64,000 nt of DNA from Candidatus Omnitrophota bacterium. Its GTDB lineage: Bacteria; Omnitrophota; Omnitrophia; Omnitrophales; Aquincolibacteriaceae. The first letter of the stretch is position 1. Each line of letters begins with the position of its first letter. The stretch spans positions 766 to 64,765 of the forward strand of contig DAOSLF010000010.1 of the NCBI GenBank assembly GCA_035368605.1. Direction: 5' to 3'. The translations under genes were made by a program, and so were the position numbers. The notes below the pieces were generated by a model, which was not told where the DNA came from, did no database searches, and saw only the letters and a program-made list of their open reading frames with translations. Positions 42,026-59,710 of the stretch are shown one piece after another.

Positions 42026-42166
42026 TGATAAAAGCTGCCTTGACCGTTGAATGTGCTGGGGGAAAGGACATTGGAGTTTATCCGCTTTCCCCCGGAGCGT
42101 CAACGAATAAAACCCGACGCATGAGCGCGTTGCGGCGCCTGAGGTCTCATGGTATTCTTCTTTTCT

Positions 42167-45673: not shown

Positions 45674-45781
45674 AGGAGCGATATTATATGCCACACACCG
45701 CATAAATCGCCACAAGTACTCTGCCGCACCCCGCATGAAAACCTTTCAGAAAGGGCGGCGATCTTGCGGCCCTGTGACAGC

Positions 45782-48700
45782 TTACGCGCTTCTCGCCGTC
45801 GCGAGGTACTCGGCCTGCATCTGTTCGACCATCTGACTCACGCCGAGACCGGCCAGGTTGAGGAAGTTCCGGAACATCTTCTGGTCGATCGTGACAACAT
45901 TGTCCTTCAACTGCTCGGCCAGAAGCGCCGCCTGCGGATTGTTCGCTCCCGCGAAAATCATGGCCTTCAGATTCAGGGAAGTGCCGCGGGCCCCGGTTTC
46001 CCGATCGGCGTCCAGGAGTTTTCTCGTCGCTTCATCCAGATCAGCGGCCGGCAGGATGGGAGGCCGGTTGGCCTGGCGGAGCCGGGCGTTGATCTTTTCA
46101 AGGAAACCAAGGTCCGCAGGATCTTCCGTCAGGACAACCGTGCGGATATTGCCAAACACATTGCGGATCACATAAACAAGACCGCGCTTGAAAGCGGTTT
46201 CGGGGTCAAGCACAAGCGCGTCGTTCGCCTGGAGCGTTTTGACCCCAAGCGACCGCCGAAGCATCCGGACGGTGAATTCGCTCTGGAATTTCTCCGGCCA
46301 GCTCGCCACCGTGACGGGCGCGGTCACCCTGGCGACCGGGGCCAGATTTTCAAGGATGATGTTTTTGATTTCATAGGAATACGCGAGAAGCGGTACGATC
46401 CCGTCCATGATCTTTTCCGTCACGGCGCGCATCGCGCGTTCGGACGCACCACTCAGGCGTTCATGATCCAGGAGAAACTCCTTATAGGTCAACACCGGGC
46501 CGGAGGCCGTGACAAGACCTCTCAATTCGCCCGCGATCTTCTGAGGCCGTGTTTCTGTCGAACGCGTTTCCGCGCGGGGGGCAGCAGAGCCGTCCAAAGG
46601 CGCCTCAGCCGCGGATTCGTTTTCCGTTTTAACGGACGGGATGACGGTAATGCCGGTCCCTTCGCGCTCGAGCTTCCAGAGACCGAGCTTCACACCCAGG
46701 GCAAGCGCGATCTCTTCCTGCGGCCGCAGCGGTCTTTCGGTGTTGTGCCCGAAAAGGTCCTTCAGGGAAATGACCGGCGGCATTCCTTGAACCGTTTTGG
46801 CCGGCGGCGGCACCAGGGCCTCCAGGATCGTCCGGATCCCGTCCTGGTTTTCTTTAATAAACCTTCCGCTAACACGGACAACGCGTTTCGTTCCGCGGAC
46901 CGTTATCCCGATCTCCGTATCTCTCGGATATTCCCTGCCGCCACGCTTGATCACGAGAGAATCCGCATAGAGCTTTTCAAAGGTCGCCGTTTCCCCGGCC
47001 GCTTCGTCTTTTTTAGCCCACTCCACGGCAGCGGCGTATTCGCCGATCGTCACGATCAGAAATGCCCGGTCGTCCTTCGAAAGCGTGAACTGTGTTTCAA
47101 AACGGTCAACAATCGCCGCAATCTCATCCTGTACCACCTCAGGGATCGCCCGTTTATTCATCGCGCCGTAGCGGCGGATAAGTTCGACATCCGGTTTCTG
47201 TTCGAGGGCAGTCACGAGGGCGGCCCGGCTCTTTTCGGCGGAGGACGGTCCTTTCGCCTTTTTCACGGAAGTCCTGGCCTCGGCGCGGACCGTCACCGGG
47301 GGTTTCAGACTTTCAAGAAAGCGGCTCGCGCGAAACAGCCCTTCAAAACCTTTGCGGCCACCCGAAACCAGTTCATGCCCGAGGAACAATTTTGCGGTCT
47401 TGCGAACGCCTTCGTCAGGATGGGAGGCGGCCACTTCCTCAAGCTCCTTGCGAACCCGGGCTTCGTCAGCCGCCGCGTTACGCAGTTCGGCCCGGGCGTG
47501 GTATTTCAGAACGCCGGCAAAAAATACGGCAAAGGACGCTGCCGGAGCCGCCGTCACCATACCCTTTGCCGCGGCCTGCGCTACTGCACGCAACTCGCTC
47601 CGCTCGCTCCACGCAGCGGGCCTTTCGCCGCTCGCTACCGGCGCGTCAGGGCGGTTTATGCCGACGGGGATCATCTGGAGCACCTGGAAACGCCATCCCG
47701 ACTGCTGAACTCCGGCAGGGTCCTTGCGCTTCACAACAGGCACGCCCACGCGCCAGCCTTCCCTGGAAAGAGAGGCTAACGTGTGTTCCCGCTCATAGAC
47801 CGTGTTCGCGGTCCAGTCACGTACTTTATAGACGGTCCCGGGAAGCAATCCCAACCGGTTGATGCTGCCCAAACCAAACCAGACCTTTCCTTCCTCTTTA
47901 TTGTAAGGCGTCTTGGCGAAATGGATCGGAATGACCACATGCCGCTTCTGTTCCGTCCCGTCCACCCTCTCGGTCACGGTGCGGGTAATGACAACGGCGG
48001 AGTCACGACTCGCATCATTGAGAAAGATGTCTCCTTTTTCAAAAAGATCTTTCATCTCCGGATCGGCCATGATCGCCTTCAGAGAGTGATACACTTCAGG
48101 ATCCCAGTCGCGCATATCTTCAAGGAATTCCGGTATCAGCCCCGCGATAAAAGCCATCACAGGACGCACGCCCTCGCTCCCGAAGCCCAGTTCCGAAACC
48201 ATTTTCCCGCGGGACAACGTAGAGATCGCCTTGAGACGCCGCTTCAGGTTTTCCGGGTCATGCCTCAAAAGATAGATCACTGTTTTTTTGAGCCAATAAC
48301 CCCGGGAGCGCTGCTGCCGGACCTGATCTTTGGGGTCCCCGGACACAAGCGCCCGGAGATCGTCGATAATGAACATTTCCTGGGATTGCTTTTGGGGACC
48401 TTCCAGTGCCATCTCCCCGGTTGGACGCAATCTCAGGATCTGAATGTCCGGTTCCGGAACGCCGATCGGAAGCGCCCCGCGGGACAGCGCCCAGAATGGA
48501 TAGGGTTTCCTGTCTTCGCCGTCACCGTAGATCTCGCCGGTGATGACGTTCGACACCTCATAGGCCATTTTCGATTCGGGGTCCGTTTGTCCGGTCAACC
48601 ACTCAAAAACCTTTTCCCCGTAGAATTGCCCCCAGGCTTTCGGCTCGCCGCCTTCCACCCCGGGATATTTCGGCTCCCCAAGGTTCAGCGCCACAATGTA

Positions 48701-51700
48701 TTTTTCCCCGTTTTCCTCGACCGCAAATCCCGCGAGGCTCTGGTTCAAAGACCCGAATTTCCGTCCCCTGGATTCCAGGTAGAAGTAAAGGTTCTGCCGG
48801 AACAGCGCGTTCCGGAAAAGTTCTTTGTAGCCTTCTCCCCGGGAGATCAAATACCCTTGCAGGATTTTCTCGGAAAGCCGGGCCACGAACAGATCCAGCA
48901 AACGAAGCGCGGCCAGATTCCCGCGCACTTTCTCCAGGGTGTTCGCCGAAGATTCAGCCTGTGCTTTCAGTGCGACCATCTCCTGATAGAGCATCGGCAA
49001 GGATTCCCTGAACGGTTCCAGATAAAAGAAGATCTTGCCAAAGATATCCCCCCGCGCCGCGTGATAAGCCACGGAACGATACCCTTCCGCGGCGTGAGTC
49101 CTCAGAAGGCGGGAACTTTCGATAAAATCCAAAACCCTGGGACCCGCAAGTTCCAGAGGCTCCGGCTTTTCCGTCCGCCAAATAAATCCGGCACGCTCAT
49201 CTTTTTCGCCTTGAGATAAAAACCTCAAAGCCTGTTCCGGAGAAAGCTGCGATTGCGCAAAGATCATCTGTTGTCTTTCTTTCTTTTGGATCACCTTTTG
49301 CCACAACTTCATATGGGCCCGGGCCTGGCTCTTTTCCATATCCACCAAGGGAGAGGAACGGAGCGCTTCCCATTCAAGGTTCATGCGTTCCGCGGGAACC
49401 TGATAACGCCCCTGAAGGTTTACGAGAGCTTCGATCATGGAGTGGGCCATCGGATAGCGTGCGTTGATTTCCACGATATTGCCGTCGGCATCCAGCGTGT
49501 TCAGGACAAATTTACGATCGCCTGTTTCGCTGTACTCCACGAGGTAACCGTTCGTAATCTTCCAATCCTTGCTATGGAGGTTTTTGACGAGCTGCTCGTA
49601 GGTCACATGTTCTTTGAAGATATCGACTTCCCGTCCGGTGGCCGTCTCAACGATCGTAAAAAGTTCGGGGCCCGCACCGCCCCAGGCCATAATCAGAACC
49701 GCTCCGTTCGGAAGCCCCTTCATCATGCTGGTCGCGGAAGCTTCCAGAACCTCGTAGGTGATCATTACGGTCGCGGAGTCTCCCTGGAAAAGGATCGGGG
49801 CGACTTCGATGTTGTAGTTTTCGATGGTCGCAAATTTGTCCTCGAGACCCAGCTCTTTGACAAGACCCTGAATCTCGAGGAATACGTCGTGTGCGTCCTG
49901 GCCGAATTCACGCCCCCCAAGGATCGCCCGGGCGGCGTGCTTTTTGTACCAGGCGAGTTTCGCGGGATCCGCCTTCAGGGAATACAGAATCTCCCGCCAT
50001 TTGTCCGGCCCCTTGTAGGAAACCTGCCGGCGCACGTTGGAAACAATCGCGGTCTTCAGAAATTCCCTTCTCAAGACCCGGATTTTTGTATCACCTGAAA
50101 TATCCTTCCACGCGTTCTCATTCACGAGCGCCACCTGGATCGCCCGGTAAAGGTCCCCGAGAACAGCGGCATCATCCACGGACTCCATCCCCAGCTCGCG
50201 GCGATAAGCTTCCATGGCTTTGTCGTACCAGGCGGGACGATTCTGACTTTGTTTCAGCCAAAGCATCAGCCGGCCTGTGAGATAAGCCTTGATCACATCG
50301 AATCGCTCCTGAAATTCTCCCAGAACCGCTTTACGGGCGGGATCGTTCAGTTTGGCGAAGAAATCCCGGTCGTCGACTTCATCCATTCCGAGTTTCCGTT
50401 TGTACGAATCGACAAGAGACCTGAAAAGCGGCGATTGCCATTGCTCAAAAAGGACCCCGTTCGTGCTACGAAGCCCGTCCCCGTTGTAGCTGTCAACAAT
50501 ATCCACATATCCGGGGGCCACTCCGCCGGCAACCGCCGGCGTATGTTCGTACAGGGCCACTCCGGTAATCATGTCGAAGATCATCCCGATCGCTTTCACC
50601 ACGTTAATCTTCCCCTTCTGAACGATGTAACGCCACAGGGAAACGGCATAACCCAAAAGCCTGGCTGAAACGGCCGCGGGCCCGTAAATCGTCGGTTCGA
50701 ACACCGAATGATTCATGTGATGATGGATCGCGTCGGGCAGAAGAGGCGTCGGAATACTGACAAAAACCTCATTGTCCACGAAGAGAATCTTCTTTTTGGC
50801 GAGACCCTTTTCCTGCAGCTTGAGGGTTAGAAGCTCCGTAATCCTTCCATAGACCGCCATTTGAAGATCGCGCCAGAGATTCGGGCCGCCATAGGGAGCG
50901 TCCGGATACACTTCGTCAAAAATCTGTACTTTCGCACCGTATTCATCGATGTAAAAGGCCTCCACGTAAAAGTTCGGCATCCCCCCGACTGATGTTTCCG
51001 TGGGGTAAACCTTGATCCGGATCTCGCGATCGGAAGCTTCCCGCGCCTGCTGAAGCCTTTTCCGGTAAAGCGTCCAATCCTTTTTTTGAGCTTCCAGTCC
51101 CGCGCGCGCGTTCGCGTCCCCCGATCCGGAGATCCGGCCGTCTATATCCGCGATGATCCCTTCCGCGCGTGAAATCCATTCTTCCGCGCCGGAGCGATAT
51201 TCACTTCCGGGTTCCATGAAAGTCTCCAGACGAAGACCGGGGTCTTCGCTGAGAACATCCCGCAAATAATCTCCCAGAGTCCTTTTGCCCTCTTTAACTT
51301 CTTCCGGAACGTCCTTGGCAAAACGCTGTCCCTTAATCTCATCATAGATCACGTTCACGGTAAACGCGTCATAGGCTTTCGCCTTGGGCCTCCCGAAGTT
51401 TTTTTGCCAGGAAGGGAAAAGATCGTGCATCAAGGCGCCAAGACCGCCGGTCACTGTCGTTGCAGCCACAAGACCCGCGATCGTTTCCCCAAACTTTTGA
51501 ATAAGCCTGTCGAGAATATCTCTTGAAAGCCCCGCTTCAAGCTGACGCGATACAACCGTATACTTCCCCAGTTCCGCGGGCTTTTTCGCCCAAGCGCGTG
51601 ATTCGGAGCGGGCAAAAACCCCGGGAGCAGATTCCGGCGCTTTTTTCCACATACGCGTCATTATCCGCACAGGACGCTCTTCCCGGACTTCGCTCCGGAC

Positions 51701-54700: not shown

Positions 54701-57700
54701 CAACGTCGCGAGCTTCTCGAAGAGATCGTCCCGGTTCGCGACGACCGTGCCTTTACCGTCGATCACGAGAACAAGCTTGTGGCCGGAGATCGTCTGCACC
54801 ATCACCCGCCGGATCCCGGAACGGACGTTTTCCGTCACAAGCTTCCCGGATGAAAATCCGCTTTTGAGGAATTCGCCGAGAGACACGCCGGGTTCTTTCG
54901 AAAGATTTTCATCCTTCATCCCAACCCGAAATTCGGAACGCAGGTTGGAGTTTGCGGCATCCCGAGCCCCGAAACGGGAATCGAACGGATCACGGGACAT
55001 AAGCGGCAGGCTTCCGGCATAAACGTCTCCCGCACCGAAATCCACGGTCAAAAGATCCCCTTCACGCAACGCTCTTCCCCCGAACATCACGCTTCCGTCC
55101 CGGAGGACGTTAAGACCCTGCACGCTGACTACGGTGGGGATTTTGTCGTAGTTAGCTACCACCGCGGCATGCGAGGTCAACCCCCCTTGGGAAGTTAAAA
55201 GTATGAGCCTTTTTCCGAAGGCCCTGAGTATGCGATTGGCATTGATAAGGTCCGGAGAATCTTCGGGCGTCGGGAAAGCACTGACAAGGATCACGGCTTC
55301 CACCTTTTCCTGCCGGGCCATGCGTTCCACCAAATCTCCCCGAAGCACTTCGGAGGGTTTCAGCGCAACAATCCCCCGCAAGGCCCCCTCGTTCCCGTAG
55401 GCGACGTTGCCGTGTCCTTCCGGAGTCCGGGAAATTTTTTCATGGTCCAAAAGCGGAAAGTTTTCCGTGTTCCCGACCCTTTGATCATAGACCGTCTGGA
55501 GGAACCACGGCTTTCTGCTTTCAACGGTGAACTCCACCATTTGGGGAACACCAAAATATGCGGCCAAAAGACTGGTGCCGGCTTTTAAACTCTCATAAAC
55601 GCGGGAATCCATGGTCTCGATCGGCCGTGTCGGGACACGCCCCTGCATGTGGTTCATGCCCTGTGAAAAAGGAACCCATTCCCCGCCAAAAACCGGATCA
55701 CCCGAATAAGGGTCGTGGGATGTGGCAATCCCCGCGCCGGAATGTTCATCCCGATCCCCAAAAACATAGGCTTGCACGATCACGGGCGTTGCCCATGCGT
55801 CTGAAATGTTTTTTTCTTTCCGGTAGCGGCTTGCCTTGGAATTTCCCCAGGATTCAAAAATTTTCTCGATCAGAAAATAAAGCTGTTTGTGTACATCCTG
55901 ATGCAGGGCCTCAAACTCCTCTTTCACGCCATAATGGTCCATGATCCCATACGCTTCCCGCACCATTTCAGAAAGATCCGACTCCCGGAGATCTTCCCAT
56001 TTCAGGACTTTGCCATCGCCAAGGAATCGGTTCGCCAAAGCCTCGAATTCGTCATGCGGAACGCCCAAACTCGTAGCCATTGATTCCACAAAACCGAGAA
56101 AGGCCCTGTAACCGGATTTAGCGCCTCTCGTTTCCAGGACATACTCCAGAATCTCCGGAGTGAATCCCACCGCCACGGCCGTTTCAAAAATCCCCGGCAT
56201 GATAAAGACAGCCCCGGAACGGACCGCGAGAAAAAGAGGCTCGCCATCTTCCCTGAGCAGAGGGGTCGGGGCCATGCCATAGCGGACAGGGTGCCCCTTC
56301 TTTCCAGACCATTCTTCTTCGAGTCTTCGGAGATGTTTTTTGATGGCTGTCTGGAACTGCTCCGGAAATTGCTTGTAAAAACGATACCGCCCGACATAGG
56401 AGGGGATCACAAAAGCGCTCGGAACCGGAAGTCCCAGGGAATTCATCCTCATCAGGTAGGTCCCTTTGCCGCCATAGGTTTTTCTTTCGTGTTGCCGGTA
56501 GTCGTAATGAGAATCCCGGTAATCATCAATGTGGGCGATCTCCCCGAACGGATCCTGTTCTTTTTGCCTGATAAAATTCCGGTGCGCCTCGGGGTTAACC
56601 GGTTTATCGGGATTCTGGTTCACCTGGACCTGCGTTCTGCTTTTGAGTTGTTCGAGAAGATCGATGGCAGCCACCGAGGCGAATTTTTCCTTGCGGATCA
56701 GGGCAATGGCACGTTCGTGCCTTTCATGGTCTTCGCCGTAAAGGAATTTTCCGGCCAGATGATATTGGGAAATCCACCGGGAGAATTCCCTCTGGATCCC
56801 TTTTTGCATGACATTGATCACATCCAGAAGTTGGCTATAACTCAGCTCCGAATCATTCAACAAATCGGACCACTGAGCCGCGTACCTTGTGATGAATCCG
56901 CTGTCAAACAGCTCGTCGGTCAGTTCCGCCATCAGCGTCAGCGCATCCTGAAAATCGGCGTCAGCCTCCCCCCATTCTTTCAGAAAGGTTCCGAGCGACA
57001 AACTCAACATTTGCCCCAAGGAACGGTCGATCACATAGAGCTTGTGCATAAGCAGGGGGTTATTCACGCTTTCCAGGATTTCTGTGACTGTCCGCCGCGC
57101 GGCAATGATTTTCCTTGTCCTTTCAAAAGAGGATTGATCATAAGCCTCCACAACAAGCTGTAGCGCTTTCTCCAGAGAGGGAAGCTCCTTGACGGTTTGG
57201 GTCTGAAGCCAGCGTTCAAAAAGGTCAGGCCTGGAAGTCCCTTCAAAAAGTGCGACCAGGGCCTGCTCCAATTGTCTGATTTGAGAATAAATTTCGTTCT
57301 TGTTCCGTCCGCCGTCGGTCATGGCAACCAGCTCGTCCCGAAGCTCCCGGTCCCGTTCCTCCAGAAAGAGCCGTTCGCGCTGGAGCCCGCCAGTGTCGCC
57401 CGTGTTCAGAAATTCCAGATAGGCCTGAACTTTGGAGAGTACCCCGTAAGAGAAAGAAGCCCCGTGAAGAGTCTGGCGGATTTCCGCCGCAAACTTGGTA
57501 CGCAATAATCGCTCGTCGAGATCCTCCGCAATTCCCCACAGAACGCTCCTGAGATCGAAGAAGGTATCGGCCGCCCCGTAGGGTAATGAGAGTACAAGCT
57601 CTTTAACAGGCCGTCTCAGGGATTTCGGGGTTTTAGCAAAAATCTGCGCGGCAAGGTTCCCGGACTGATCAACAAGATCGTCAGGATACTGTTCATAATC

Positions 57701-59710
57701 ACGCGAGTGGTTGAGGCGGAGCGTTTTTTTCTTTTCTCTCAAAAGAAGACTCAGCTGAAAGATCATATCCAGGTGGGCGCTCAGATCCTCCTGTTTCAGA
57801 ATCCACCGGATCACCGCAAACGCATCGCCCCAGGTTCTGATCTCCCGAAAATCCGGCGTATCTCCCCTCGCCTCGGAGCGTCGATGGGAAGAATCGGCAT
57901 CATCGGGACCGCTCCTTGTTTTCGAGTCCTGGAGAAATGCCGCGGGCGGCGATGCCTTGAGCCGGTCGACCCGATCGCCAACGGCATTCACGGCGGTTGT
58001 CACTTCTTTTGATCCGGAGCGAAAAGAAGCCGCGGCGGCGATAAAATTGCGGCGGACGGCGGCGACACCTTCCGGGGAAACCTGCCGGACGATCCCGGCA
58101 ACACGCTCGCCGGCCGCGGCAAAATCACGGTGCCAGGTCCGGGGAGACGTTTCCTGCCAAAACCGTATTTCGCTTCGGACTACGGGAGCCATGTGGGACT
58201 TCCCTGTCAATTCCTGTCCGAGCAGTGCGGCAAGATAGTTCTTCCGGGAATCTGCCGGAACCTCACCGATATGGGGCGTGATCCCGATGTAGGCATTGCC
58301 CGAACGCGTGATTCTCTCTTTAAGTCCGTCGGTGTGAAAACCGCCGGTAATAAGCACGGCCCTGGTCCGCTTGCGTTCTTTCATTCGCGCGAGAGACTTT
58401 TCCATCATGAAATCCTCGCGGCGAATCGCGCCGGCGTAGAATTCCAGCGCTGTTTGATAGAGGGTTTGCAAGGCGGGCGATACATCTGCCGCCAAATGTT
58501 CCGGAACGATTTTCCTCGAAACCACCTGCTGGTATTCTTCCCGGGAAAGCTCCAGATGAAAAAGTTTTTTGAGCAACAGATATTCCCGCAGCAACGCCAC
58601 GTGCCCGCGTTCGCTTTCGGTCCCGGTGGTCGCGACAACGATTTGCTTCGAAAGTTCCCGGATCTCTTGCTGCAGCGCCTCACCCTGAAGCTCGGACATG
58701 AGGACCAACTGCTGGATATGAAGGCGAAAGTTCGGATAAACGGCAAAAGAAAAATCGTTCGGCAAAGCGTCCATCATGCGTTCAAAGACAAACCGGGTTT
58801 CATAGACCGGAAGGGATCCGGTCTTCGCTGAGGCGAAAACCCGCTCCACCTCGCCCGCCACGGAGGATGAAAGGCCGGTTTCCGCAAAGAATTTCTTTTT
58901 CTCGATTTCGCTTTTGGCGAGGTCGATCCCGGCGCCCGCCTTTTTCAAACGGAAATAGCGGACCAGGGTCGGCCAGGCGACCTGTGCCGACGCGTCCAGA
59001 AGATCCAGATCCAGCGAGGAGAACGCCTTCTTCTTCAACGTTTCCAGCCAATCGGTGAGCGGACTTTGCCCTGTCTCGTAGGAAACATAACGGCTGAGGA
59101 ATTCCCGAAGGCCCTTATTCAAAACCGATGCGGCCTGGCCCTGCCACCGGAGATAAGCCTTGTCGAGAAAAGCGTTCCCGATCTCACGGCCTTTAAAAAC
59201 GGCCTTGAAAGCTTCGCGGTCCGCACGATACGCCGCAGCGTCTTCAACCCCCCAACCTTCTGCCCCTCGGGGCGCATCCATCAAAAAGACCTCCGCGCCG
59301 GTAAGTTCGCCGGCCTCCATCAACTTGCGATTTGCCTCGTGCTGCAATTTGGCGTCGGCGGGAAAAAAACGGAACAGCTTCGGTTCGAGCTTGTATCCGG
59401 CCCCTTCCATGAGAACCAGGTCAACGCCATAGTCCCTGGAAAGATACTGCAAAATACCCCGGATATTCTTTTGGGCGTCATAATTGGCGTGAGCTTCCTG
59501 AATATGGATCAGGACCGGTGATTGCGGAGCGGCCGGAATGATCTCATGCACTCGACCGAATGCGTCGGGGATTTTGAACGAGGAAACAAAAGAAGGCGCT
59601 TCCACACCCCGGGCATGGGCGAGCGGGGAAGGAGTCAGAGTGTTGGTCGCGAAGAAAGTGACAACAACGAAACCTGCCAGAAGTCTGTTAAGCTTCTTCA
59701 GAGAATACAT
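45782..59710 (-). CDS. giant 4642-aa multidomain protein. Order: N-terminal TM, shared ~450-aa His-motif domain, PEP-synthase/PPDK-type ATP-grasp + swivel-His dikinase module, internal TM block, REC-like + PilZ-like pair, GT35-like alpha-glucan phosphorylase region, ~1100-aa C-terminal region of unknown function.
   Basis: Single uninterrupted ORF with non-repetitive sequence. Domain motifs are listed in the findings. Confidence 0.8.
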   Translation of the reverse strand: MYSLKKLNRLLAGFVVVTFFATNTLTPSPLAHARGVEAPSFVSSFKIPDAFGRVHEIIPAAPQSPVLIHIQEAHANYDAQKNIRGILQYLSRDYGVDLVLMEGAGYKLEPKLFRFFPADAKLQHEANRKLMEAGELTGAEVFLMDAPRGAEGWGVEDAAAYRADREAFKAVFKGREIGNAFLDKAYLRWQGQAASVLNKGLREFLSRYVSYETGQSPLTDWLETLKKKAFSSLDLDLLDASAQVAWPTLVRYFRLKKAGAGIDLAKSEIEKKKFFAETGLSSSVAGEVERVFASAKTGSLPVYETRFVFERMMDALPNDFSFAVYPNFRLHIQQLVLMSELQGEALQQEIRELSKQIVVATTGTESERGHVALLREYLLLKKLFHLELSREEYQQVVSRKIVPEHLAADVSPALQTLYQTALEFYAGAIRREDFMMEKSLARMKERKRTRAVLITGGFHTDGLKERITRSGNAYIGITPHIGEVPADSRKNYLAALLGQELTGKSHMAPVVRSEIRFWQETSPRTWHRDFAAAGERVAGIVRQVSPEGVAAVRRNFIAAAASFRSGSKEVTTAVNAVGDRVDRLKASPPAAFLQDSKTRSGPDDADSSHRRSEARGDTPDFREIRTWGDAFAVIRWILKQEDLSAHLDMIFQLSLLLREKKKTLRLNHSRDYEQYPDDLVDQSGNLAAQIFAKTPKSLRRPVKELVLSLPYGAADTFFDLRSVLWGIAEDLDERLLRTKFAAEIRQTLHGASFSYGVLSKVQAYLEFLNTGDTGGLQRERLFLEERDRELRDELVAMTDGGRNKNEIYSQIRQLEQALVALFEGTSRPDLFERWLQTQTVKELPSLEKALQLVVEAYDQSSFERTRKIIAARRTVTEILESVNNPLLMHKLYVIDRSLGQMLSLSLGTFLKEWGEADADFQDALTLMAELTDELFDSGFITRYAAQWSDLLNDSELSYSQLLDVINVMQKGIQREFSRWISQYHLAGKFLYGEDHERHERAIALIRKEKFASVAAIDLLEQLKSRTQVQVNQNPDKPVNPEAHRNFIRQKEQDPFGEIAHIDDYRDSHYDYRQHERKTYGGKGTYLMRMNSLGLPVPSAFVIPSYVGRYRFYKQFPEQFQTAIKKHLRRLEEEWSGKKGHPVRYGMAPTPLLREDGEPLFLAVRSGAVFIMPGIFETAVAVGFTPEILEYVLETRGAKSGYRAFLGFVESMATSLGVPHDEFEALANRFLGDGKVLKWEDLRESDLSEMVREAYGIMDHYGVKEEFEALHQDVHKQLYFLIEKIFESWGNSKASRYRKEKNISDAWATPVIVQAYVFGDRDEHSGAGIATSHDPYSGDPVFGGEWVPFSQGMNHMQGRVPTRPIETMDSRVYESLKAGTSLLAAYFGVPQMVEFTVESRKPWFLQTVYDQRVGNTENFPLLDHEKISRTPEGHGNVAYGNEGALRGIVALKPSEVLRGDLVERMARQEKVEAVILVSAFPTPEDSPDLINANRILRAFGKRLILLTSQGGLTSHAAVVANYDKIPTVVSVQGLNVLRDGSVMFGGRALREGDLLTVDFGAGDVYAGSLPLMSRDPFDSRFGARDAANSNLRSEFRVGMKDENLSKEPGVSLGEFLKSGFSSGKLVTENVRSGIRRVMVQTISGHKLVLVIDGKGTVVANRDDLFEKLATLLPAGVTVTADPHDARNILFDGARIRWNDAGMLEDVLNQQMGARSEGRDFAGRRSVLRSVREKASLALTFAAVGLVAGAFLTTALVVAAGLAISGFFVSKRTVPVRKSEPKVTKIPNAALPAFDTRPSLEISPGLPSGEVLWSFSRKNFGEAQGSIAAFLEKQGVTREALLGTFVTFKPKARIAYTIMIDDNPARQGLWMVDSLSRQSGVRGIEDLEWLEISKQEETVSAVRRSELRDCLILASAMIFFVSVSAMIHRLVILPLRYRYQRLPGHILYREAIGRLDPAEAQDSQVLLALRHILGTSYLAPREIREKHYRERYQAWTRALAEATDASTIKRVLELLILGDIRDRVEGQVVYFTAEDLKYIPLMEEIVRILEAGDRNLGVSVRLDKENRRWDVRMREHRVHFEARPEVAAVLSTEIPGKTFPALKNVLVADGEPGISGFRQLVKELAPQAKVVSARIDSYNREELWKNLDKGPFDLALVNFDVASKREEWKTWTRKALSTATGKVQTPIILLSSHPENPLIEDLIRDRLVSGVIETPKAVIVNGRGEAAYLLSARHAQALSDFLTRQGFRFSMRSETRKAEQELGLDETLVFGAGEFRLVMDSPCEGGAYVLLQSQNTNISVDGKMISREGDGFDLYAGTPLTVTRGKGEEPVRIFLKDVGGSKITIEIESPEGMLFTVLDQTYRPRKDRKGQTMRDRDMDRLSRWFRATGQDARSEVRETPDVLRIRSMLETENRAGDVLAMARKSLEGDGFAALTVSGLIKTWMKSEPAESPLYQSSAWLNEQMAPWSEKLDAVKTGRNDQLLIEAVLAAALVLERDRDPRAAENRIRNVYEQFAAKNISSEVSAMLALAFVFADGASIALRQQYTLRYFRQFQRENYSPVESALATIHLLKTRIRAFEHGHRGIFGRFLNKRVSERIAALLTAAFYAQGREQFLTNDIFTGYTALLKEGYEDSQAAALTLIRTILGAWAMMKEKENIRALADRLTGLGDEFVRSEVREERPVRIMTRMWKKAPESAPGVFARSESRAWAKKPAELGKYTVVSRQLEAGLSRDILDRLIQKFGETIAGLVAATTVTGGLGALMHDLFPSWQKNFGRPKAKAYDAFTVNVIYDEIKGQRFAKDVPEEVKEGKRTLGDYLRDVLSEDPGLRLETFMEPGSEYRSGAEEWISRAEGIIADIDGRISGSGDANARAGLEAQKKDWTLYRKRLQQAREASDREIRIKVYPTETSVGGMPNFYVEAFYIDEYGAKVQIFDEVYPDAPYGGPNLWRDLQMAVYGRITELLTLKLQEKGLAKKKILFVDNEVFVSIPTPLLPDAIHHHMNHSVFEPTIYGPAAVSARLLGYAVSLWRYIVQKGKINVVKAIGMIFDMITGVALYEHTPAVAGGVAPGYVDIVDSYNGDGLRSTNGVLFEQWQSPLFRSLVDSYKRKLGMDEVDDRDFFAKLNDPARKAVLGEFQERFDVIKAYLTGRLMLWLKQSQNRPAWYDKAMEAYRRELGMESVDDAAVLGDLYRAIQVALVNENAWKDISGDTKIRVLRREFLKTAIVSNVRRQVSYKGPDKWREILYSLKADPAKLAWYKKHAARAILGGREFGQDAHDVFLEIQGLVKELGLEDKFATIENYNIEVAPILFQGDSATVMITYEVLEASATSMMKGLPNGAVLIMAWGGAGPELFTIVETATGREVDIFKEHVTYEQLVKNLHSKDWKITNGYLVEYSETGDRKFVLNTLDADGNIVEINARYPMAHSMIEALVNLQGRYQVPAERMNLEWEALRSSPLVDMEKSQARAHMKLWQKVIQKKERQQMIFAQSQLSPEQALRFLSQGEKDERAGFIWRTEKPEPLELAGPRVLDFIESSRLLRTHAAEGYRSVAYHAARGDIFGKIFFYLEPFRESLPMLYQEMVALKAQAESSANTLEKVRGNLAALRLLDLFVARLSEKILQGYLISRGEGYKELFRNALFRQNLYFYLESRGRKFGSLNQSLAGFAVEENGEKYIVALNLGEPKYPGVEGGEPKAWGQFYGEKVFEWLTGQTDPESKMAYEVSNVITGEIYGDGEDRKPYPFWALSRGALPIGVPEPDIQILRLRPTGEMALEGPQKQSQEMFIIDDLRALVSGDPKDQVRQQRSRGYWLKKTVIYLLRHDPENLKRRLKAISTLSRGKMVSELGFGSEGVRPVMAFIAGLIPEFLEDMRDWDPEVYHSLKAIMADPEMKDLFEKGDIFLNDASRDSAVVITRTVTERVDGTEQKRHVVIPIHFAKTPYNKEEGKVWFGLGSINRLGLLPGTVYKVRDWTANTVYEREHTLASLSREGWRVGVPVVKRKDPAGVQQSGWRFQVLQMIPVGINRPDAPVASGERPAAWSERSELRAVAQAAAKGMVTAAPAASFAVFFAGVLKYHARAELRNAAADEARVRKELEEVAASHPDEGVRKTAKLFLGHELVSGGRKGFEGLFRASRFLESLKPPVTVRAEARTSVKKAKGPSSAEKSRAALVTALEQKPDVELIRRYGAMNKRAIPEVVQDEIAAIVDRFETQFTLSKDDRAFLIVTIGEYAAAVEWAKKDEAAGETATFEKLYADSLVIKRGGREYPRDTEIGITVRGTKRVVRVSGRFIKENQDGIRTILEALVPPPAKTVQGMPPVISLKDLFGHNTERPLRPQEEIALALGVKLGLWKLEREGTGITVIPSVKTENESAAEAPLDGSAAPRAETRSTETRPQKIAGELRGLVTASGPVLTYKEFLLDHERLSGASERAMRAVTEKIMDGIVPLLAYSYEIKNIILENLAPVARVTAPVTVASWPEKFQSEFTVRMLRRSLGVKTLQANDALVLDPETAFKRGLVYVIRNVFGNIRTVVLTEDPADLGFLEKINARLRQANRPPILPAADLDEATRKLLDADRETGARGTSLNLKAMIFAGANNPQAALLAEQLKDNVVTIDQKMFRNFLNLAGLGVSQMVEQMQAEYLATARSA
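49200..51615 (-). other. GT35-like alpha-glucan phosphorylase region inside the 4642-aa protein
   Basis: Four GT35-type motifs in order: TGGLGALMHD (vs SGGLGVLAGDH), HHHMNHSVFE (vs HLNEGHAAF), EHTPAVAGG (vs THTPVPAGH), STNGVLFEQW (vs TNGVHxxTW). Confidence 0.5.
52675..53413 (-). other. REC-like (pseudo-receiver?) domain followed by PilZ-like c-di-GMP-binding domain inside the 4642-aa protein
   Basis: VLVADGEP ... FDLALVNFDV ... PIILLSSH (receiver-like). Then MRSETRK (RxxxR) and, 24 aa later, MDSPCEGGAYVLL (PilZ DxSxxG-like box). Confidence 0.4.
55000..56490 (-). other. PEP synthase/PPDK/rifampin-phosphotransferase-type dikinase module (ATP-grasp nucleotide-binding domain + phosphohistidine swivel domain) inside the 4642-aa protein
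   Basis: YGGKGTYLMRMNSLGLPVPSAFVI, LAVRSGAVFIMPGIFETAV, GIATSHDPYSGDPVFGGEWVPFSQGMNHMQGRVP, then LILLTSQGGLTSHAAVVANYDKIPTVV (TSH catalytic His). Confidence 0.75.

What the first reader, a model, noticed from the sequence alone, without database searches (positions are those of the whole stretch)
45782..59710. 4642-aa single-ORF protein combining a dikinase module, REC-like+PilZ pair and a glucan-phosphorylase-like region
What the sequence shows:
- One uninterrupted 13.9-kb ORF encodes a non-repetitive polypeptide. It is not an adhesin or RTX-like repeat protein.
- In order it carries: an N-terminal TM anchor; a ~450-aa domain shared with two paralogs; a complete PEP-synthase/PPDK-type dikinase module (ATP-grasp GGKG... 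then swivel GGLTSHAAVV); a 35-residue hydrophobic block (aa ~1733-1767); a REC-like + PilZ-like pair; an ~800-aa region with four GT35 alpha-glucan phosphorylase signature motifs in the correct order; and ~1100 aa with no recognisable domains.

Established knowledge: the dikinase architecture is that of PEP synthase, PPDK, rifampin phosphotransferase and plant glucan-water dikinase.

Inference: this is a membrane-anchored, possibly c-di-GMP-regulated, polysaccharide (glucan) phosphorylating/processing assembly line. I know of no described protein with this architecture.
Basis: partly seen in the sequence, partly recalled or inferred. Interest (0 to 1): 0.9.

Follow-up and report, generated by a model that had tools for sequence, protein, structure and literature searches.

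The report
Omnitrophota giant modular multi-enzyme protein
This 4,642-residue open reading frame is a real gene of an Omnitrophota bacterium and belongs to that phylum's known giant multi-enzyme proteins; it strings a phosphate-transfer enzyme and a glycogen-phosphorylase-like enzyme behind an exported hydrolase-like head, with a short R-S-E-x-R sequence marking nearly every module boundary.

Summary
The ORF (45782..59710, minus strand, 4,642 aa) is real, uninterrupted and non-repetitive. Relatives in more than 20 Omnitrophota genomes also carry uninterrupted ORFs of over 3,000 aa.

**Confirmed**
- A signal-peptide-like N-terminus.
- A ~500-aa head domain shared with two paralogs in the window. 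Its predicted fold belongs to the Tiki/TraB/ChaN/erythromycin-esterase superfamily.
- A PPDK-type dikinase: ATP-grasp plus swivel domain with His1514. The PEP/pyruvate domain is absent.
- Hydrophobic blocks.
- A divergent glucan phosphorylase/synthase-type GT-B domain carrying the GT35 PLP-lysine signature.

**Revised**
- The "REC-like" region is homologous to receivers but lacks the acceptor Asp and the conserved Lys.
- "PilZ" is not supported. Its RxxxR is one copy of a linker motif, R-[SA]-E-x-R. That motif occurs 13 times here (0.38 expected) and 517 times in 128 related giant ORFs (24 expected), at module junctions.

**Other points**
- Modules are shuffled between lineages. The closest relative has a subtilase where this protein has the dikinase.
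- The protein is a small member of the known Omnitrophota giant multi-enzyme class (Archaeovorin-like).
- The linker motif, head domain and conserved C-terminal domain were not mentioned in the three papers I read.
- Function, topology and any proteolytic processing remain inferred.

The parts
45782..59710 (-). Whole ORF, 4,642 aa plus stop codon
   Evidence: Same-species second assembly L001 is co-linear over the full length. Orthologous ORFs are uninterrupted for >3,000 aa in more than 20 Omnitrophota MAGs.
59609..59710 (-). aa 1-34: signal-peptide-like N-terminus (K5, K6, R9; hydrophobic core; ...PLAHA|RG)
   Evidence: Read from the sequence. All family members inspected show the same pattern with AxA-type sites. 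AlphaFold helix aa 2-25 followed by a disordered stretch. No signal-peptide predictor was available.
58211..59593 (-). aa 40-500: family-defining head domain A. Tiki/TraB/ChaN/erythromycin-esterase-like core with a ~300-aa helical insertion. Invariant H74, Q80, E102, R431, H459.
56501..57865 (-). aa 616-1070: helical region of unknown fold. It travels with the dikinase as one module (module B = aa 611-1590).
   Evidence: Conserved together with the dikinase in L019 and L010 (80%), L012, L015 and L039. No Pfam or PDB relative.
55472..56494 (-). aa 1073-1413: PPDK-type ATP-grasp nucleotide-binding domain (GGKG, VRSGA..MPG, GEW..SQG..GR)
   Evidence: PF01326 46.2 bits, above the cut-off. TIGR01828 E 5e-57 but below the equivalog cut-off. 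PPDK structures E 2e-38 with alignment shown.
55001..55393 (-). aa 1440-1570: phosphohistidine swivel domain, GGLTSH(1514)AAVV
   Evidence: PF00391 31.4 bits, above the cut-off. Aligned to the PPDK His domain. Residue numbering. No PEP/pyruvate TIM-barrel domain follows.
54575..54925 (-). aa 1596-1712: small module C, unknown function
   Evidence: Found in different positions in L002, L010, L012 and L019.
54407..54517 (-). aa 1732-1768: 37-residue hydrophobic block (one long helix or a helical hairpin), basic residues on both flanks
   Evidence: Kyte-Doolittle scan.
53909..53998 (-). aa 1905-1934: second hydrophobic segment, immediately after RSELR at aa 1902
53066..53416 (-). aa 2099-2215: degenerate receiver (REC)-like domain. 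Asn2156 at the phospho-acceptor position, Thr2212 at the conserved Lys position.
   Evidence: hhalign 96.4%, P 1.4e-9, 106 columns. Controls 1% or less. No Pfam or PDB sequence hit. Relatives aligned.
Fold not determined. Bounded by RSETR (2250) and RSEVR (2391).
   Evidence: No PilZ hit. Conserved only in L002/P0002. L010 and L022 diverge right after the RSExR.
51698..52525 (-). aa 2396-2671: region specific to this species (helical by my reading of the sequence, not computed), between two RSEVR motifs
   Evidence: Only the same-species contig L001 matches it. Weak sub-threshold TPR-like Pfam hit only.
49271..51595 (-). aa 2706-3480: GT-B glucan phosphorylase/synthase-type catalytic domain with GT35 signatures. 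TGGLGALM 2754-61, NH(3001)SV, STN(3084)GV, RRQVSYK 3227-33, GGR 3265-67, EASATSMMK(3331).
47603..49270 (-). aa 3481-4036: helical plus beta region that travels with the GT-B domain (module F = aa 2701-4036). Unknown function.
   Evidence: Conserved with the GT-B domain in most relatives. Confidently modelled up to aa 3900. No PDB sequence relative.
47507..47563 (-). aa 4050-4068: third hydrophobic segment, flanked by RSELR (4037) and RAELR (4073)
47288..47479 (-). aa 4078-4141: ~65-aa mini-module bounded by RAELR and RAEAR
   Evidence: Found at other positions in L010, L012, L019 and P0002.
45785..46561 (-). aa 4384-4642: conserved C-terminal domain G, ending ...EYLATARSA-COOH
   Evidence: Always at the C-terminus in L004, L008, L013, L024, P0003-5 and P0039. 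No Pfam or PDB relative.
58163..58177 (-). RSEIR, aa 512-516 (linker motif)
   Evidence: Lies in a pLDDT<50 segment of the head-domain model.
57866..57880 (-). RSEAR, aa 611-615; start of module B
   Evidence: alignment ends at aa 610/611/611
54926..54940 (-). RSEFR, aa 1591-1595; end of module B
   Evidence: alignment ends at aa 1590/1592
54560..54574 (-). RSEGR, aa 1713-1717; end of module C
53993..54007 (-). RSELR, aa 1902-1906
52949..52963 (-).
52526..52540 (-). RSEVR, aa 2391-2395
51683..51697 (-). RSEVR, aa 2672-2676
51596..51610 (-). RSESR, aa 2701-2705; start of module F
   Evidence: seven alignments start at aa 2700/2701. pLDDT<50 in the model.
47588..47602 (-). RSELR, aa 4037-4041; end of module F
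47480..47494 (-). RAELR, aa 4073-4077
47273..47287 (-). RAEAR, aa 4142-4146
46562..46576 (-). RAETR, aa 4379-4383; start of C-terminal domain G
59991..62183 (+). Divergently transcribed 730-aa paralog carrying head domain A; lipobox-like LVAC at aa 9-12
   Evidence: An equivalent divergent ~720-790-aa partner is present in 20 of 24 loci L002-L025, plus L060 and the same-species L001.

Best explanation
This is a genuine gene of a Candidatus Omnitrophota bacterium. It encodes a small member of that phylum's giant, membrane-associated, mosaic multi-enzyme proteins.

**Build, as shown by the analyses**
- A Sec-type signal-peptide-like N-terminus.
- A ~460-aa head domain with a Tiki/TraB/ChaN/erythromycin-esterase fold and an invariant His/Glu/Arg/His set.
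- A chain of self-contained modules, each delimited by a short, probably disordered R-[SA]-E-x-R linker.
- A family-specific C-terminal domain.

**Modules in this protein**
- A PPDK-type dikinase: an unknown ~455-aa helical region, then an ATP-grasp domain, then a His1514 swivel domain. It lacks the PEP/pyruvate domain.
- A receiver-like domain that cannot be phosphorylated at the canonical Asp.
- A divergent glycogen phosphorylase/synthase-type GT-B enzyme. It keeps the GT35 pyridoxal-phosphate lysine motif (EASATSMMK, K3331) and the basic phosphate-site residues.

**Inferred**
- The dikinase takes the beta-phosphate of ATP onto His1514 and passes it to an acceptor bound by its own N-terminal helical region. 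That acceptor is not pyruvate.
- The GT-B module phosphorolyses or elongates an alpha-glucan-like polymer.
- The modules act as independent enzymes held together at the membrane, or released by cleavage at the linkers, rather than as an obligate pathway. The reason is that lineages swap them freely.
For: **Gene reality**
- Intact ORF.
- An independent assembly of the same species is co-linear over the full length.
- Orthologs have uninterrupted ORFs of more than 3,000 aa.

**Taxon and family**
- 237 head-domain relatives, nearly all in Omnitrophota MAGs.
- The head domain always sits at the N-terminus of long ORFs.

**Dikinase.**

**GT-B module.**

**Receiver-like domain.**

**Linker motif**
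- 13 observed against 0.38 expected.
- 517 against 24 in 128 giant ORFs, compared with 32 against 18 in 1,139 ordinary ORFs.
- In an unbiased pentapeptide scan it is the only enriched pattern that can recur several times per protein: 421 against 5.3, in all 64 motif-rich proteins. Only HHH.N (16 occurrences, one per protein) has a higher fold-enrichment.
- Alignment end-points pile up on the motifs.
- Codons at the motifs are diverse, so selection acts on the peptide.
- The two motifs covered by models lie in pLDDT<50 segments.

**Mosaicism**
- Against L002: head 84%, module F 93%, dikinase absent and a subtilase in its place.
- Against L019 and L010: head 48%, dikinase module 80%.
- Module order differs in L010 and L012.

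**Literature.** The class and its domain content (PPDK-type, starch-synthase-type, receiver, TM helices) are described in 10.1101/2023.11.21.568195, 10.64898/2026.06.07.730766 and PMC10066038.
Against: - No activity, expression or processing data exist for this protein.
- Topology is unresolved and awkward. A signal-peptide-like N-terminus is followed by 1,700 aa with no hydrophobic segment. That would put an ATP-dependent enzyme outside the cytoplasm.
- The dikinase acceptor is unknown.
- The ED pair in the PPDK GEDVV stretch reads MN here.
- Mapping of phosphorylase catalytic residues partly rests on my recollection of rabbit muscle phosphorylase numbering.
- 42 related giants, many with the head domain, have no RSExR at all.
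Confidence: 0.6

Rival explanations
1. Polyprotein precursor. The giant chain is cut at the R-[SA]-E-x-R linkers into separate enzymes. The cutting enzyme would be the Tiki-like head domain, the divergently encoded head-domain lipoprotein, or in relatives an S8 subtilase module. The modules then act as free or membrane-tethered proteins.
For: - The motif is a tight peptide-level signal in probably disordered linkers at module junctions, including junctions whose neighbours differ between proteins.
- The head-domain fold family includes proteases: Tiki, and the RRSP hit 5w6l (the protease role is from my own knowledge).
- The closest relative carries a subtilase module.
- The natural C-terminus ...TARSA resembles the first half of the motif.
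- The literature proposes cleavage of Omnitrophota giants but states that cleavage points are unknown.
Against: - There is no proteomic evidence.
- The same fold family also includes esterases and a haem-binding protein.
- 42 related giants with the head domain lack the motif.
- The window paralog at 17877..28682 has only 4 motifs in 3,601 aa.
Confidence: 0.25
2. A single integrated, c-di-GMP-regulated glucan phosphorylating and processing assembly line, in which the dikinase phosphorylates the same glucan that the GT35 domain then processes (as glucan-water dikinase and phosphorylase do in plants).
For: - Both enzymes are real and look catalytically competent.
- They co-occur in three species: window, L012 and L015.
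- Sugar-metabolism modules are common in the family.
Against: - No PilZ domain.
- The receiver-like domain lacks the acceptor Asp.
- The dikinase has PPDK domain order and no detectable carbohydrate-binding module.
- The closest relative lacks the dikinase. None of about 57 long proteins (>=1,500 aa) recovered with the aa 2701-3900 query has it.
Confidence: 0.12
3. Exported surface or predation factor of the Archaeovorin type. The signal peptide sends the head and following modules out of the cytoplasm. The enzymes then act on prey or host envelope polymers, or inside a prey cell where ATP is available.
For: - Signal peptides with AxA sites are conserved across the family, and the small partner has a lipobox-like sequence.
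- Omnitrophota giants are proposed to act in attachment and predation, and many are predicted to have a signal peptide plus TM helices.
Against: - ATP-, NAD- and UDP-sugar-dependent modules are hard to reconcile with an extracytoplasmic site: the dikinase here and the UDP-glucose dehydrogenase in L013.
- No adhesin, dockerin or SecA-like domains were detected.
- The lifestyle of this organism is unknown.
Confidence: 0.25
4. Module F is a nucleotide-sugar-dependent glucan synthase (GT5-like), not a PLP-dependent phosphorylase.
For: - TGGLGAL and YKGPD resemble the GT5 KTGGL and QKGxD motifs (my own knowledge).
- Starch-synthase-type domains are the commonest sugar domain reported in Omnitrophota giants.
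- One intermediate homolog has a weak Glyco_transf_5 hit.
Against: - The sequence profile hits only GT35 in the PDB: 48 of 48.
- Only PF00343 and TIGR02094 are detected.
- EASATSMMK, including the PLP lysine, is invariant or nearly so in the family.
- GT35 alignments are longer: 529-547 residues against 425-447.
- The Foldseek top 50 are all GT35.
Confidence: 0.2
5. Artefact. The ORF is an assembly chimera, or several genes fused by sequencing errors.
For: The low-coverage same-species contig L001 shows the region broken into about 10 ORFs.
Against: - L001 has 2.5x coverage. It is 99% identical and co-linear, and its breaks are frameshifts.
- More than 20 independent MAGs have uninterrupted orthologous ORFs of 3,000 to over 3,900 aa.
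- Exhaustive search finds relatives of 2,000-7,900 aa.
Confidence: 0.02

Closest known systems
Giant multi-domain proteins of Omnitrophota ('Archaeovorins'; West-Roberts et al. 2023 bioRxiv 10.1101/2023.11.21.568195; Nielsen & Lui 2026 bioRxiv 10.64898/2026.06.07.730766; Seymour et al. 2023 PMC10066038)
   Same: - Same phylum.
- A single very long ORF with a signal peptide and/or a few TM helices.
- A non-repetitive string of divergent metabolic domains, reported to include PPDK-type, starch-synthase-type, receiver and other sugar-metabolism domains.
- Peptidase modules occur in some members, and cleavage has been suspected.
   Different: - At 4.6 kaa it is far below the size ranges those studies analysed (>=30 kaa, and a long-protein catalogue counted at >=10 kaa).
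- No SecA-DEAD, C39 or HEAT domains were detected here.
- The Tiki-like head domain, the RSExR junction motif, the conserved C-terminal domain and the divergent partner gene are not mentioned in the texts I could search.
GT35 alpha-glucan phosphorylases (glycogen, starch and maltodextrin phosphorylase; PF00343, TIGR02094)
   Same: - GT-B fold.
- Ordered motifs GGLG, NHT, TNGV..W, [KR]Rxxx-YK, GG[KR], EASxTxxMK with the PLP lysine, and NG..G..GA.xE.
   Different: - About 12-16% identity.
- Below the Pfam and NCBIfam cut-offs.
- Large insertions.
- Fused to a ~550-aa extension and embedded in a giant protein.
- Structurally as close to GT5 synthases as to GT35.
PEP-utilising His-dikinases: pyruvate phosphate dikinase, PEP synthase, rifampin phosphotransferase, plant glucan-water dikinase
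   Same: ATP-grasp nucleotide domain plus swivelling phosphohistidine domain with a GGxTSHAA motif. Domain order is as in PPDK and PEP synthase.
   Different: - There is no PEP/pyruvate TIM-barrel domain, so it is not a PPDK or PEP synthase.
- No CBM was detected and the order is not His-then-ATP, so it is not a glucan-water dikinase.
- The presumed acceptor-binding part is an uncharacterised ~455-aa helical region placed N-terminal to the ATP-grasp domain.
Tiki/TraB/PrgY/GumN, ChaN, erythromycin esterase and RRSP superfamily
   Different: - A ~300-aa helical insertion.
- No significant sequence match. The best Pfam hit is E 0.002 in 2 of 18 members.
- Always the N-terminal head of giant proteins.
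- Activity (protease, esterase or binding) unknown.
Viral and eukaryotic polyproteins; modular NRPS/PKS megasynthases
   Same: Many independent functional units in one reading frame. Short conserved junction sequences. Modules exchanged between lineages.
   Different: - No evidence yet of cleavage, unlike polyproteins.
- No carrier domains or vectorial chemistry, unlike NRPS/PKS.
- Module sets look like loosely related sugar-metabolism enzymes.

Membership tests
GT35 alpha-glucan phosphorylase | GT-B two-Rossmann fold of phosphorylase type | tested here: met
GT35 alpha-glucan phosphorylase | PLP-binding lysine in the E-A-S-G-x-[GS]-x-M-K signature | tested here: met
   EASATSMMK, K3331. E, A, T and K are invariant in 14 relatives. 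Aligned to EASGTSNMK of Arabidopsis PHS2 and of E. coli MalP/GlgP. G changed to A at position 4.
GT35 alpha-glucan phosphorylase | Basic phosphate-site residues (rabbit K568/R569/K574) and His377/Asn484 equivalents | tested here: inconclusive
   RRQVSYK (3227-3233), NH3001, TN3084GV are invariant or nearly invariant. NHT and TNGV were aligned by hhalign. The RRxxxYK equivalence rests on motif spacing and on my recollection of the rabbit sequence; hhalign placed it a few columns off.
GT35 alpha-glucan phosphorylase | Score at or above the curated family cut-off (PF00343 27 bits; TIGR02094 191.7) | tested here: not met
   15.0 bits for the whole protein and 19.9 for the slice. TIGR02094 15.9. 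Intermediate homologs P0057, P0095 and P0073 pass with 52-57 bits.
GT35 alpha-glucan phosphorylase | Closer to GT35 than to the sister family GT5 | tested here: inconclusive
GT35 alpha-glucan phosphorylase | Phosphorolysis of alpha-1,4-glucan with bound PLP | not testable with these tools
   Requires biochemistry.
Pyruvate phosphate dikinase / PEP synthase | ATP-grasp nucleotide-binding domain (PF01326) | tested here: met
   46.2 bits against 27. PDB PPDK E 2e-38.
Pyruvate phosphate dikinase / PEP synthase | Swivel domain with catalytic His (PF00391) | tested here: met
   31.4 bits against 23.1. GGLTSH1514AAVV aligned to GGMTSHAAVV.
Pyruvate phosphate dikinase / PEP synthase | C-terminal PEP/pyruvate-binding TIM barrel (PF02896) | tested here: not met
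   No hit. The PPDK match stops at chain residue ~511 of 874. Equivalog cut-offs are missed by a wide margin: 193.5 against 843.
Glucan, water dikinase (plant GWD/PWD) | Starch-binding module (CBM45/CBM20) and order CBM - His domain - C-terminal nucleotide domain | tested here: not met
   No CBM hit. The order is nucleotide domain then His domain. The definition of the family is from my own knowledge.
Response-regulator receiver (REC, PF00072) | Homology to the CheY-like fold | tested here: met
   hhalign 96.4%, P 1.4e-9, strands 1-5 aligned. Controls 1% or less.
Response-regulator receiver (REC, PF00072) | Pfam cut-off | tested here: not met
   No hit at E<=10 in the window protein or in three relatives.
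Response-regulator receiver (REC, PF00072) | Phospho-acceptor Asp at the end of strand 3, and conserved Lys after strand 5 | tested here: not met
   DLALVN2156 (Gly in L010 and L022; Asp only in L002). ET2212P where relatives have EKP.
PilZ c-di-GMP receptor (PF07238) | Family profile match | tested here: not met
   No Pfam hit at E<=10. No PDB profile hit.
PilZ c-di-GMP receptor (PF07238) | RxxxR followed by [DN]xSxxG | tested here: not met
   RSETR is one of 13 RSExR linkers. DSPCEGG has Pro where Ser is required, and reads DSPYEAG in the closest relative.
Tiki/TraB/ChaN/erythromycin-esterase superfamily (head domain) | Shared fold | tested here: met
Tiki/TraB/ChaN/erythromycin-esterase superfamily (head domain) | Conserved His...Glu...Arg...GxxH active-site set | tested here: inconclusive
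   H74, E102, R431 and H459 are invariant in 18-30 sequences. Their superposition on the catalytic residues of the hits was not available from the tools.
Tiki/TraB/ChaN/erythromycin-esterase superfamily (head domain) | Significant sequence-profile match | tested here: not met
   Best result is Cofac_haem_bdg at E 0.002 in 2 of 18 members. No PDB sequence hit.
Omnitrophota giant proteins (Archaeovorin type) | Omnitrophota origin; very long single ORF; membrane association; mixed sugar-metabolism and PPDK-type domains | tested here: met
   Literature.
Omnitrophota giant proteins (Archaeovorin type) | Length >=30,000 aa, numerous TM regions, SecA-DEAD-like domain (as defined by West-Roberts et al.) | tested here: not met
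   4,642 aa. Three internal hydrophobic segments (a fourth KD peak at aa 2521-2539 and the signal peptide not counted). No SecA hit.

The most novel reading that the evidence does not exclude
R-S-E-x-R could be the long-sought processing and junction code of Omnitrophota giant proteins. On this reading the giant ORFs are bacterial polyproteins. Their enzyme cassettes are delimited, exchanged between lineages, and perhaps released at this motif. The releasing enzyme would be the exported Tiki-like head domain or its divergently encoded lipoprotein partner, or subtilase modules in relatives. If so, these giants could be cut computationally into their functional units, and a polyprotein strategy would be documented in cellular prokaryotes.
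Probability: 0.2. Interest if true: 0.85.

Novelty: new variant of a known kind. Interest (0 to 1): 0.6.

Why it matters
Giant Omnitrophota proteins are an acknowledged knowledge gap. Their functions are unclear, their topology predictions are implausible, and published work says the lack of known cleavage or junction points blocks their dissection.

This locus shows three things:
- A mid-sized family of such proteins shares a recognisable head domain and tail domain.
- Its enzyme modules are swapped between lineages.
- The module borders carry a simple, strongly enriched peptide motif.

That gives a concrete rule for splitting these proteins into testable units, and a specific proteomic prediction: termini at RSExR. 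It also adds a very divergent branch of the glycogen phosphorylase/synthase fold, and a PPDK-type dikinase with an unknown acceptor.

Tried and rejected
**Searches that failed or were blocked**
- The whole-protein word-index search timed out.
- Word-index searches with the GT35-like slice and with a 14-sequence profile returned only one fragment of the same species. The exhaustive search found 102 relatives, including one at 91% identity.
I rebuilt the alignments from accepted protein ids.
- The afdb50 fold library was unavailable.

**Searches that ran and found nothing**
- Profile searches against the PDB found nothing for the REC/PilZ region, the head domain, the C-terminal domain, the helical part of the dikinase module, or the extension after the GT-B domain.
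- Pfam on slices found nothing for 7 of 9 slices.

**Ideas rejected**
- PilZ or c-di-GMP control. See the membership test.
- Assembly chimera.
- A DNA-level repeat or recombination site as the origin of the linker motif. Codons at the 13 sites are diverse.
- The motif as mainly a TM-flanking topogenic signal. Only 7% of motifs lie next to a hydrophobic segment, although such segments are enriched threefold for an upstream motif.
- An analogous junction motif in the 42 motif-free relatives. None was found.
- A true PPDK or PEP synthase. There is no TIM-barrel domain.

Full report

The window contains one uninterrupted minus-strand ORF at 45782..59710. It has an ATG start and encodes 4,642 aa. 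Self-comparison finds no internal repeats, so it is not an adhesin or RTX-type repeat protein.

Its first ~480 residues are shared with two other ORFs in the window:
- the 3,601-aa ORF at 17877..28682(-): 31% identity, E 2e-55;
- more weakly, the 730-aa ORF at 59991..62183(+).

A hydrophobicity scan confirms the block at aa 1732-1768 and finds further segments at 1905-1934 and 4050-4068. It also gives two weaker peaks, at 2521-2539 and 3035-3053.

The gene is not an assembly artefact:
- A contig of essentially the same organism from another sample (L001, 2.5x coverage) is co-linear and ~99% identical over the whole length. It is broken only by frameshifts, which the low coverage plausibly explains.
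- The orthologous ORFs in more than 20 other metagenome-assembled genomes run uninterrupted for 3,000 to over 3,900 aa, often to the end of the DNA I could fetch.

**2. Where does it come from?**

I searched one genome per species with an alignment of the shared N-terminal domain. This returned 237 relatives. Nearly all are in Candidatus Omnitrophota MAGs, and a few are labelled Elusimicrobia.

The flanking genes are conserved in L001: a menaquinone-biosynthesis gene (Pfam VitK2_biosynth), an M24 peptidase and a split transketolase.

Giant ORFs are a known hallmark of Omnitrophota (PMC10066038). Two preprints describe their mixed domain content:
- 10.1101/2023.11.21.568195 states that 'Archaeovorins' frequently contain pyruvate-phosphate-dikinase-type domains and many sugar-metabolism domains.
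- 10.64898/2026.06.07.730766 lists starch-synthase-type, GT1, phosphoglucomutase and receiver domains, and reports signal peptides or TM helices in 94% of 916 long proteins.

The present protein is a small representative of this class.

**3. Anatomy, module by module**

(a) *N-terminus, aa 1-34.*
- It has basic residues, a hydrophobic core and ...PLAHA|RG.
- All family members I inspected have the same Sec-signal-peptide look with AxA-type sites.
- This is read from the sequence. No predictor was available.

(b) *Head domain A, aa ~40-500.*
- It always lies at the N-terminus of long ORFs.
- Sequence methods barely recognise it. The best result is Cofac_haem_bdg (Tiki superfamily) at E 0.002 in 2 of 18 members, and there is no PDB sequence hit.
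- An AlphaFold model built on 30 sequences has pLDDT 86.7.
- H74, Q80, E102, R431 and H459 are invariant.
- The core is interrupted by a ~300-residue helical insertion.

(c) *Module B, aa 611-1590.*
- It begins with a ~455-aa helical region that has no detectable relatives.
- A PPDK-type ATP-grasp domain follows (PF01326, 46.2 bits against a cut-off of 27).
- Then comes the swivel phosphohistidine domain (PF00391, 31.4 bits against 23.1) with GGLTSH1514AAVV.
- PPDK crystal structures align from chain residue 15 to ~511, E 2e-35 to 2e-38. The PEP/pyruvate TIM barrel that follows in PPDK is absent.
- The GGKG, VRSGA..MPG and GE..QG..R motifs are kept. The ED of the PPDK GEDVV stretch reads MN.

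(d) *Small modules and two hydrophobic segments, aa 1596-2098.*

(e) *Receiver-like domain, aa 2099-2215.*
- Pfam and PDB sequence searches are negative, even for a four-sequence profile.
- A profile-profile comparison with a receiver profile gives 96.4% probability, P 1.4e-9, across strands 1-5. Five other modules used as controls give 1% or less.
- The acceptor position is Asn2156 and the conserved lysine position is Thr2212. It is best called a pseudo-receiver.

(f) *aa 2255-2390, the supposed PilZ.*
- No profile support at any threshold.
- The second PilZ motif is not met and is not conserved.
- The first, RSETR, is explained in section 4.

(g) *Module F, aa 2701-4036.*

Evidence pointing to GT35:
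- Alone, it scores below the Pfam cut-off for Phosphorylase (15-19.9 bits against 27).
- A 14-sequence family profile finds 48 PDB sequences, all of them GT35 phosphorylases, best E 2e-8.
- An exhaustive search of 1.84 billion representatives finds only 102 relatives, mostly 2,000-7,900-aa proteins. The more distant ones (for example P0057, E 8e-13 to the query) pass the PF00343 cut-off.
- The AlphaFold model of aa 2701-3900 is confident (pLDDT 90.5, pTM 0.87).
- The 50 best Foldseek hits are all glycogen, maltodextrin or alpha-glucan phosphorylases (E ~5e-14).

Evidence that blurs the assignment:
- The fold is therefore the shared synthase/phosphorylase GT-B fold.

What tips it towards GT35:
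- The family-invariant motifs are of GT35 type: EASATSMMK with K3331 aligned to the PLP lysine, NH3001, TN3084GV..W, RRxxxYK and GGR.
- I therefore favour a PLP-dependent phosphorylase, but I cannot exclude synthase-like chemistry.
- The following ~550 aa travel with this domain in most relatives. They are modelled confidently up to aa 3900 and have no known relatives.

(h) *C-terminal part.*
- It holds a hydrophobic segment (4050-4068), a ~65-aa mini-module and a species-specific stretch.
- It ends with a conserved C-terminal domain (aa 4384-4642) finishing ...EYLATARSA.

**4. The junction motif**

The pentapeptide R-[SA]-E-x-R occurs 13 times in this protein. Composition-preserving shuffles give 0.38 on average, with a maximum of 4 in 1,000 shuffles.

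The sites are aa 512, 611, 1591, 1713, 1902, 2250, 2391, 2672, 2701, 4037, 4073, 4142 and 4379. These are the places where similarity to other family members starts or stops:
- alignments to module B begin at aa 610/611/611 and end at 1590/1592;
- seven alignments to module F begin at 2700/2701 and end at 4037/4042;
- the mini-module spans 4072-4146;
- the tail starts at 4379/4382.

Family-wide figures:

| Sequence set | Observed | Expected |
|---|---|---|
| 128 giant ORFs | 517 | 24 |
| 1,139 ordinary ORFs from the same DNA | 32 | 18 |
| RSE.R in 64 motif-rich proteins, unbiased pentapeptide scan | 421 | 5.3 |

Further properties:
- In the unbiased scan RSE.R is present in all 64 proteins. 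It is the only enriched pattern that can recur several times per protein. Only HHH.N, with 16 occurrences at one per protein, has a higher fold-enrichment.
- The variable position is mostly V, L, M, A or I.
- Small residues precede the motif and acidic residues follow it.
- Codons at the 13 sites differ, so the constraint is on the peptide.
- The two copies covered by structure models lie in low-confidence, probably disordered linkers.
- Only 7% of motifs sit next to hydrophobic segments.
- Forty-two related giants, including the Elusimicrobia-labelled ones, lack the motif entirely.

The texts of the two preprints on Omnitrophota giants do not mention such a motif. One of them states that missing information on cleavage points prevented splitting the proteins.

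**5. Mosaic evolution**

Module content and order vary among orthologous loci.

| Relative | Head domain identity | Other modules |
|---|---|---|
| L002 / P0002 (closest, 5,675 aa) | 84% | Module F 93% (L002; 86% over the longer P0002 alignment). No dikinase; an S8 subtilase in the corresponding slot |
| L019 and L010 | 48-49% | Dikinase module 80% |
| L013 | 48% (tblastn) | A complete UDP-glucose/GDP-mannose dehydrogenase |
| L004 | 50% (tblastn) | A methyltransferase and an aldose epimerase-like region |
| Window paralog 17877..28682 | 31% | A PPDK_N domain and a Bac_transf sugar transferase |

- The dikinase and module F occur together only in the window, L012 and L015.
- None of about 57 long proteins (>=1,500 aa) recovered with the aa 2701-3900 query contains the dikinase module.

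This argues that modules are independent functional cassettes rather than steps of one fixed pathway.

**6. Most likely mechanism**

*Shown:*
- a genuine, conserved, modular giant protein with the parts listed above;
- conserved catalytic motifs in the dikinase and in the GT-B enzyme.

*Inferred:*
- The dikinase autophosphorylates His1514 from ATP and transfers the phosphate to an acceptor bound by its private helical region.
- The GT-B module acts on an alpha-glucan-like polymer.
- The pseudo-receiver has a structural or interaction role.
- The modules work side by side while tethered to the membrane, or after release at the linkers.

The polyprotein idea is attractive. Supporting it are the disordered junction motif, a head fold shared with known proteases, subtilase modules in relatives, and a natural C-terminus (ARSA) that resembles a half-motif. 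It is unproven, and it is weakened by motif-free relatives that keep the head domain.

**7. Unresolved**

Topology is paradoxical. The signal peptide, and the lipobox-like LVAC in the small partner, imply an exported head domain. No hydrophobic segment separates that head from the ATP-dependent dikinase. The same kind of implausible localisation was noted for larger Omnitrophota giants. Either the prediction rules fail for these proteins, or the enzymes act somewhere ATP is available, for example inside a host or prey cell. Nothing here tests that.

**8. Verdict**

- sugar-polymer enzymes at the membrane are supported;
- c-di-GMP regulation and the idea of a unique architecture are not.

The protein is a new variant within a known kind. 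The additions not mentioned in the papers I read are the Tiki-like head domain, the RSExR junction motif, the conserved tail, and the conserved divergent partner gene.

Noticed in passing
window 17877-28682 (-): A second giant ORF (3,601 aa from the first listed TTG start; probably shorter from Met11). It has the same head domain, a PPDK_N domain (aa 2330-2614, 90 bits) without a detected swivel domain, and a Bac_transf sugar-phosphate transferase domain (aa 2867-3034, 109 bits). It contains only 4 RSExR motifs and ends ...SLASAA.
   Followed up: partly
window 59991-62183 (+); e.g. L002:2107-4335(-), L005:7580-9757(-), L023:7532-9796(-): A ~720-790-aa paralog of the head domain is transcribed divergently from the giant gene. 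It occurs in 20 of the 24 loci L002-L025, plus L060 and the same-species contig L001. The window copy has a lipobox-like LVAC at aa 9-12. This is a conserved gene pair of unknown meaning.
   Followed up: partly
C-termini of giant ORFs: window 45785-45826; P0002-P0101; L004, L013, L024 and others: Most complete family members end in a similar tail whose last residue is Ala (ARSA, ATMA, SSMA, SASA, TQA, TAA). This holds even where the preceding domain differs. It may be a C-terminal sorting, secretion or protease-recognition signal.
   Followed up: partly
L002:6273-10715 (closest relative; same protein as P0002 aa ~580-2060): Where the window protein has the dikinase module, the closest relative has ~1,480 aa containing a Peptidase_S8 subtilase (53 bits). 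This is a clean example of a module swap between near-identical flanks.
   Followed up: partly
L013:5729-16879 (aa 2966-3346); L004:5014-16242 (aa 2959-3397): Orthologous giants carry a complete UDP-glucose/GDP-mannose dehydrogenase (three Pfam domains), or a SAM methyltransferase plus an aldose-1-epimerase-like region that scores below the cut-off. These cofactor-dependent cytoplasmic-type enzymes sit in signal-peptide-bearing proteins.
   Followed up: no
window aa 1-1731 of the ORF (54518-59710): A signal-peptide-like N-terminus is followed by 1,700 aa with no hydrophobic segment, yet this stretch contains an ATP-grasp dikinase. The predicted exported location conflicts with the need for ATP.
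   Followed up: partly
L047, L050, L053, L056, L072, L074, L075, L079-L081; P0010, P0012, P0072, P0091 and others: 42 related giant ORFs have no RSExR at all, and no alternative enriched junction pentapeptide was found. Many of them have the head domain, and several come from MAGs labelled Elusimicrobia. The motif is therefore clade-specific.
   Followed up: partly
window 44786-45736 (-), 42149-43291 (+), 40266-42286 (-), 38522-40300 (-): Downstream neighbours are housekeeping-type genes: a menaquinone-biosynthesis gene (Pfam VitK2_biosynth), an M24 peptidase, a split transketolase and a gamma-glutamyltranspeptidase. The first three are syntenic in L001. There is no obvious polysaccharide or secretion operon around the giant gene.
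   Followed up: partly
method (versus 38): The word-index protein search missed all giant relatives, including a representative at 91% identity, while the exhaustive HMMER search found 102. Very long proteins seem to escape the indexed search, so 'no homologs' from that tool is unreliable for giant ORFs.
   Followed up: no
L051:9878-21478 (aa 3433-3554), L014:3652-14463 (aa 3397-3521), L006:5857-17580 (aa 780-852): Canonical-looking receiver domains occur inside other giant ORFs of the family. They were detected with a small local REC profile at E 4e-22 to 1e-7. This contrasts with the degenerate one in the window protein.
   Followed up: no
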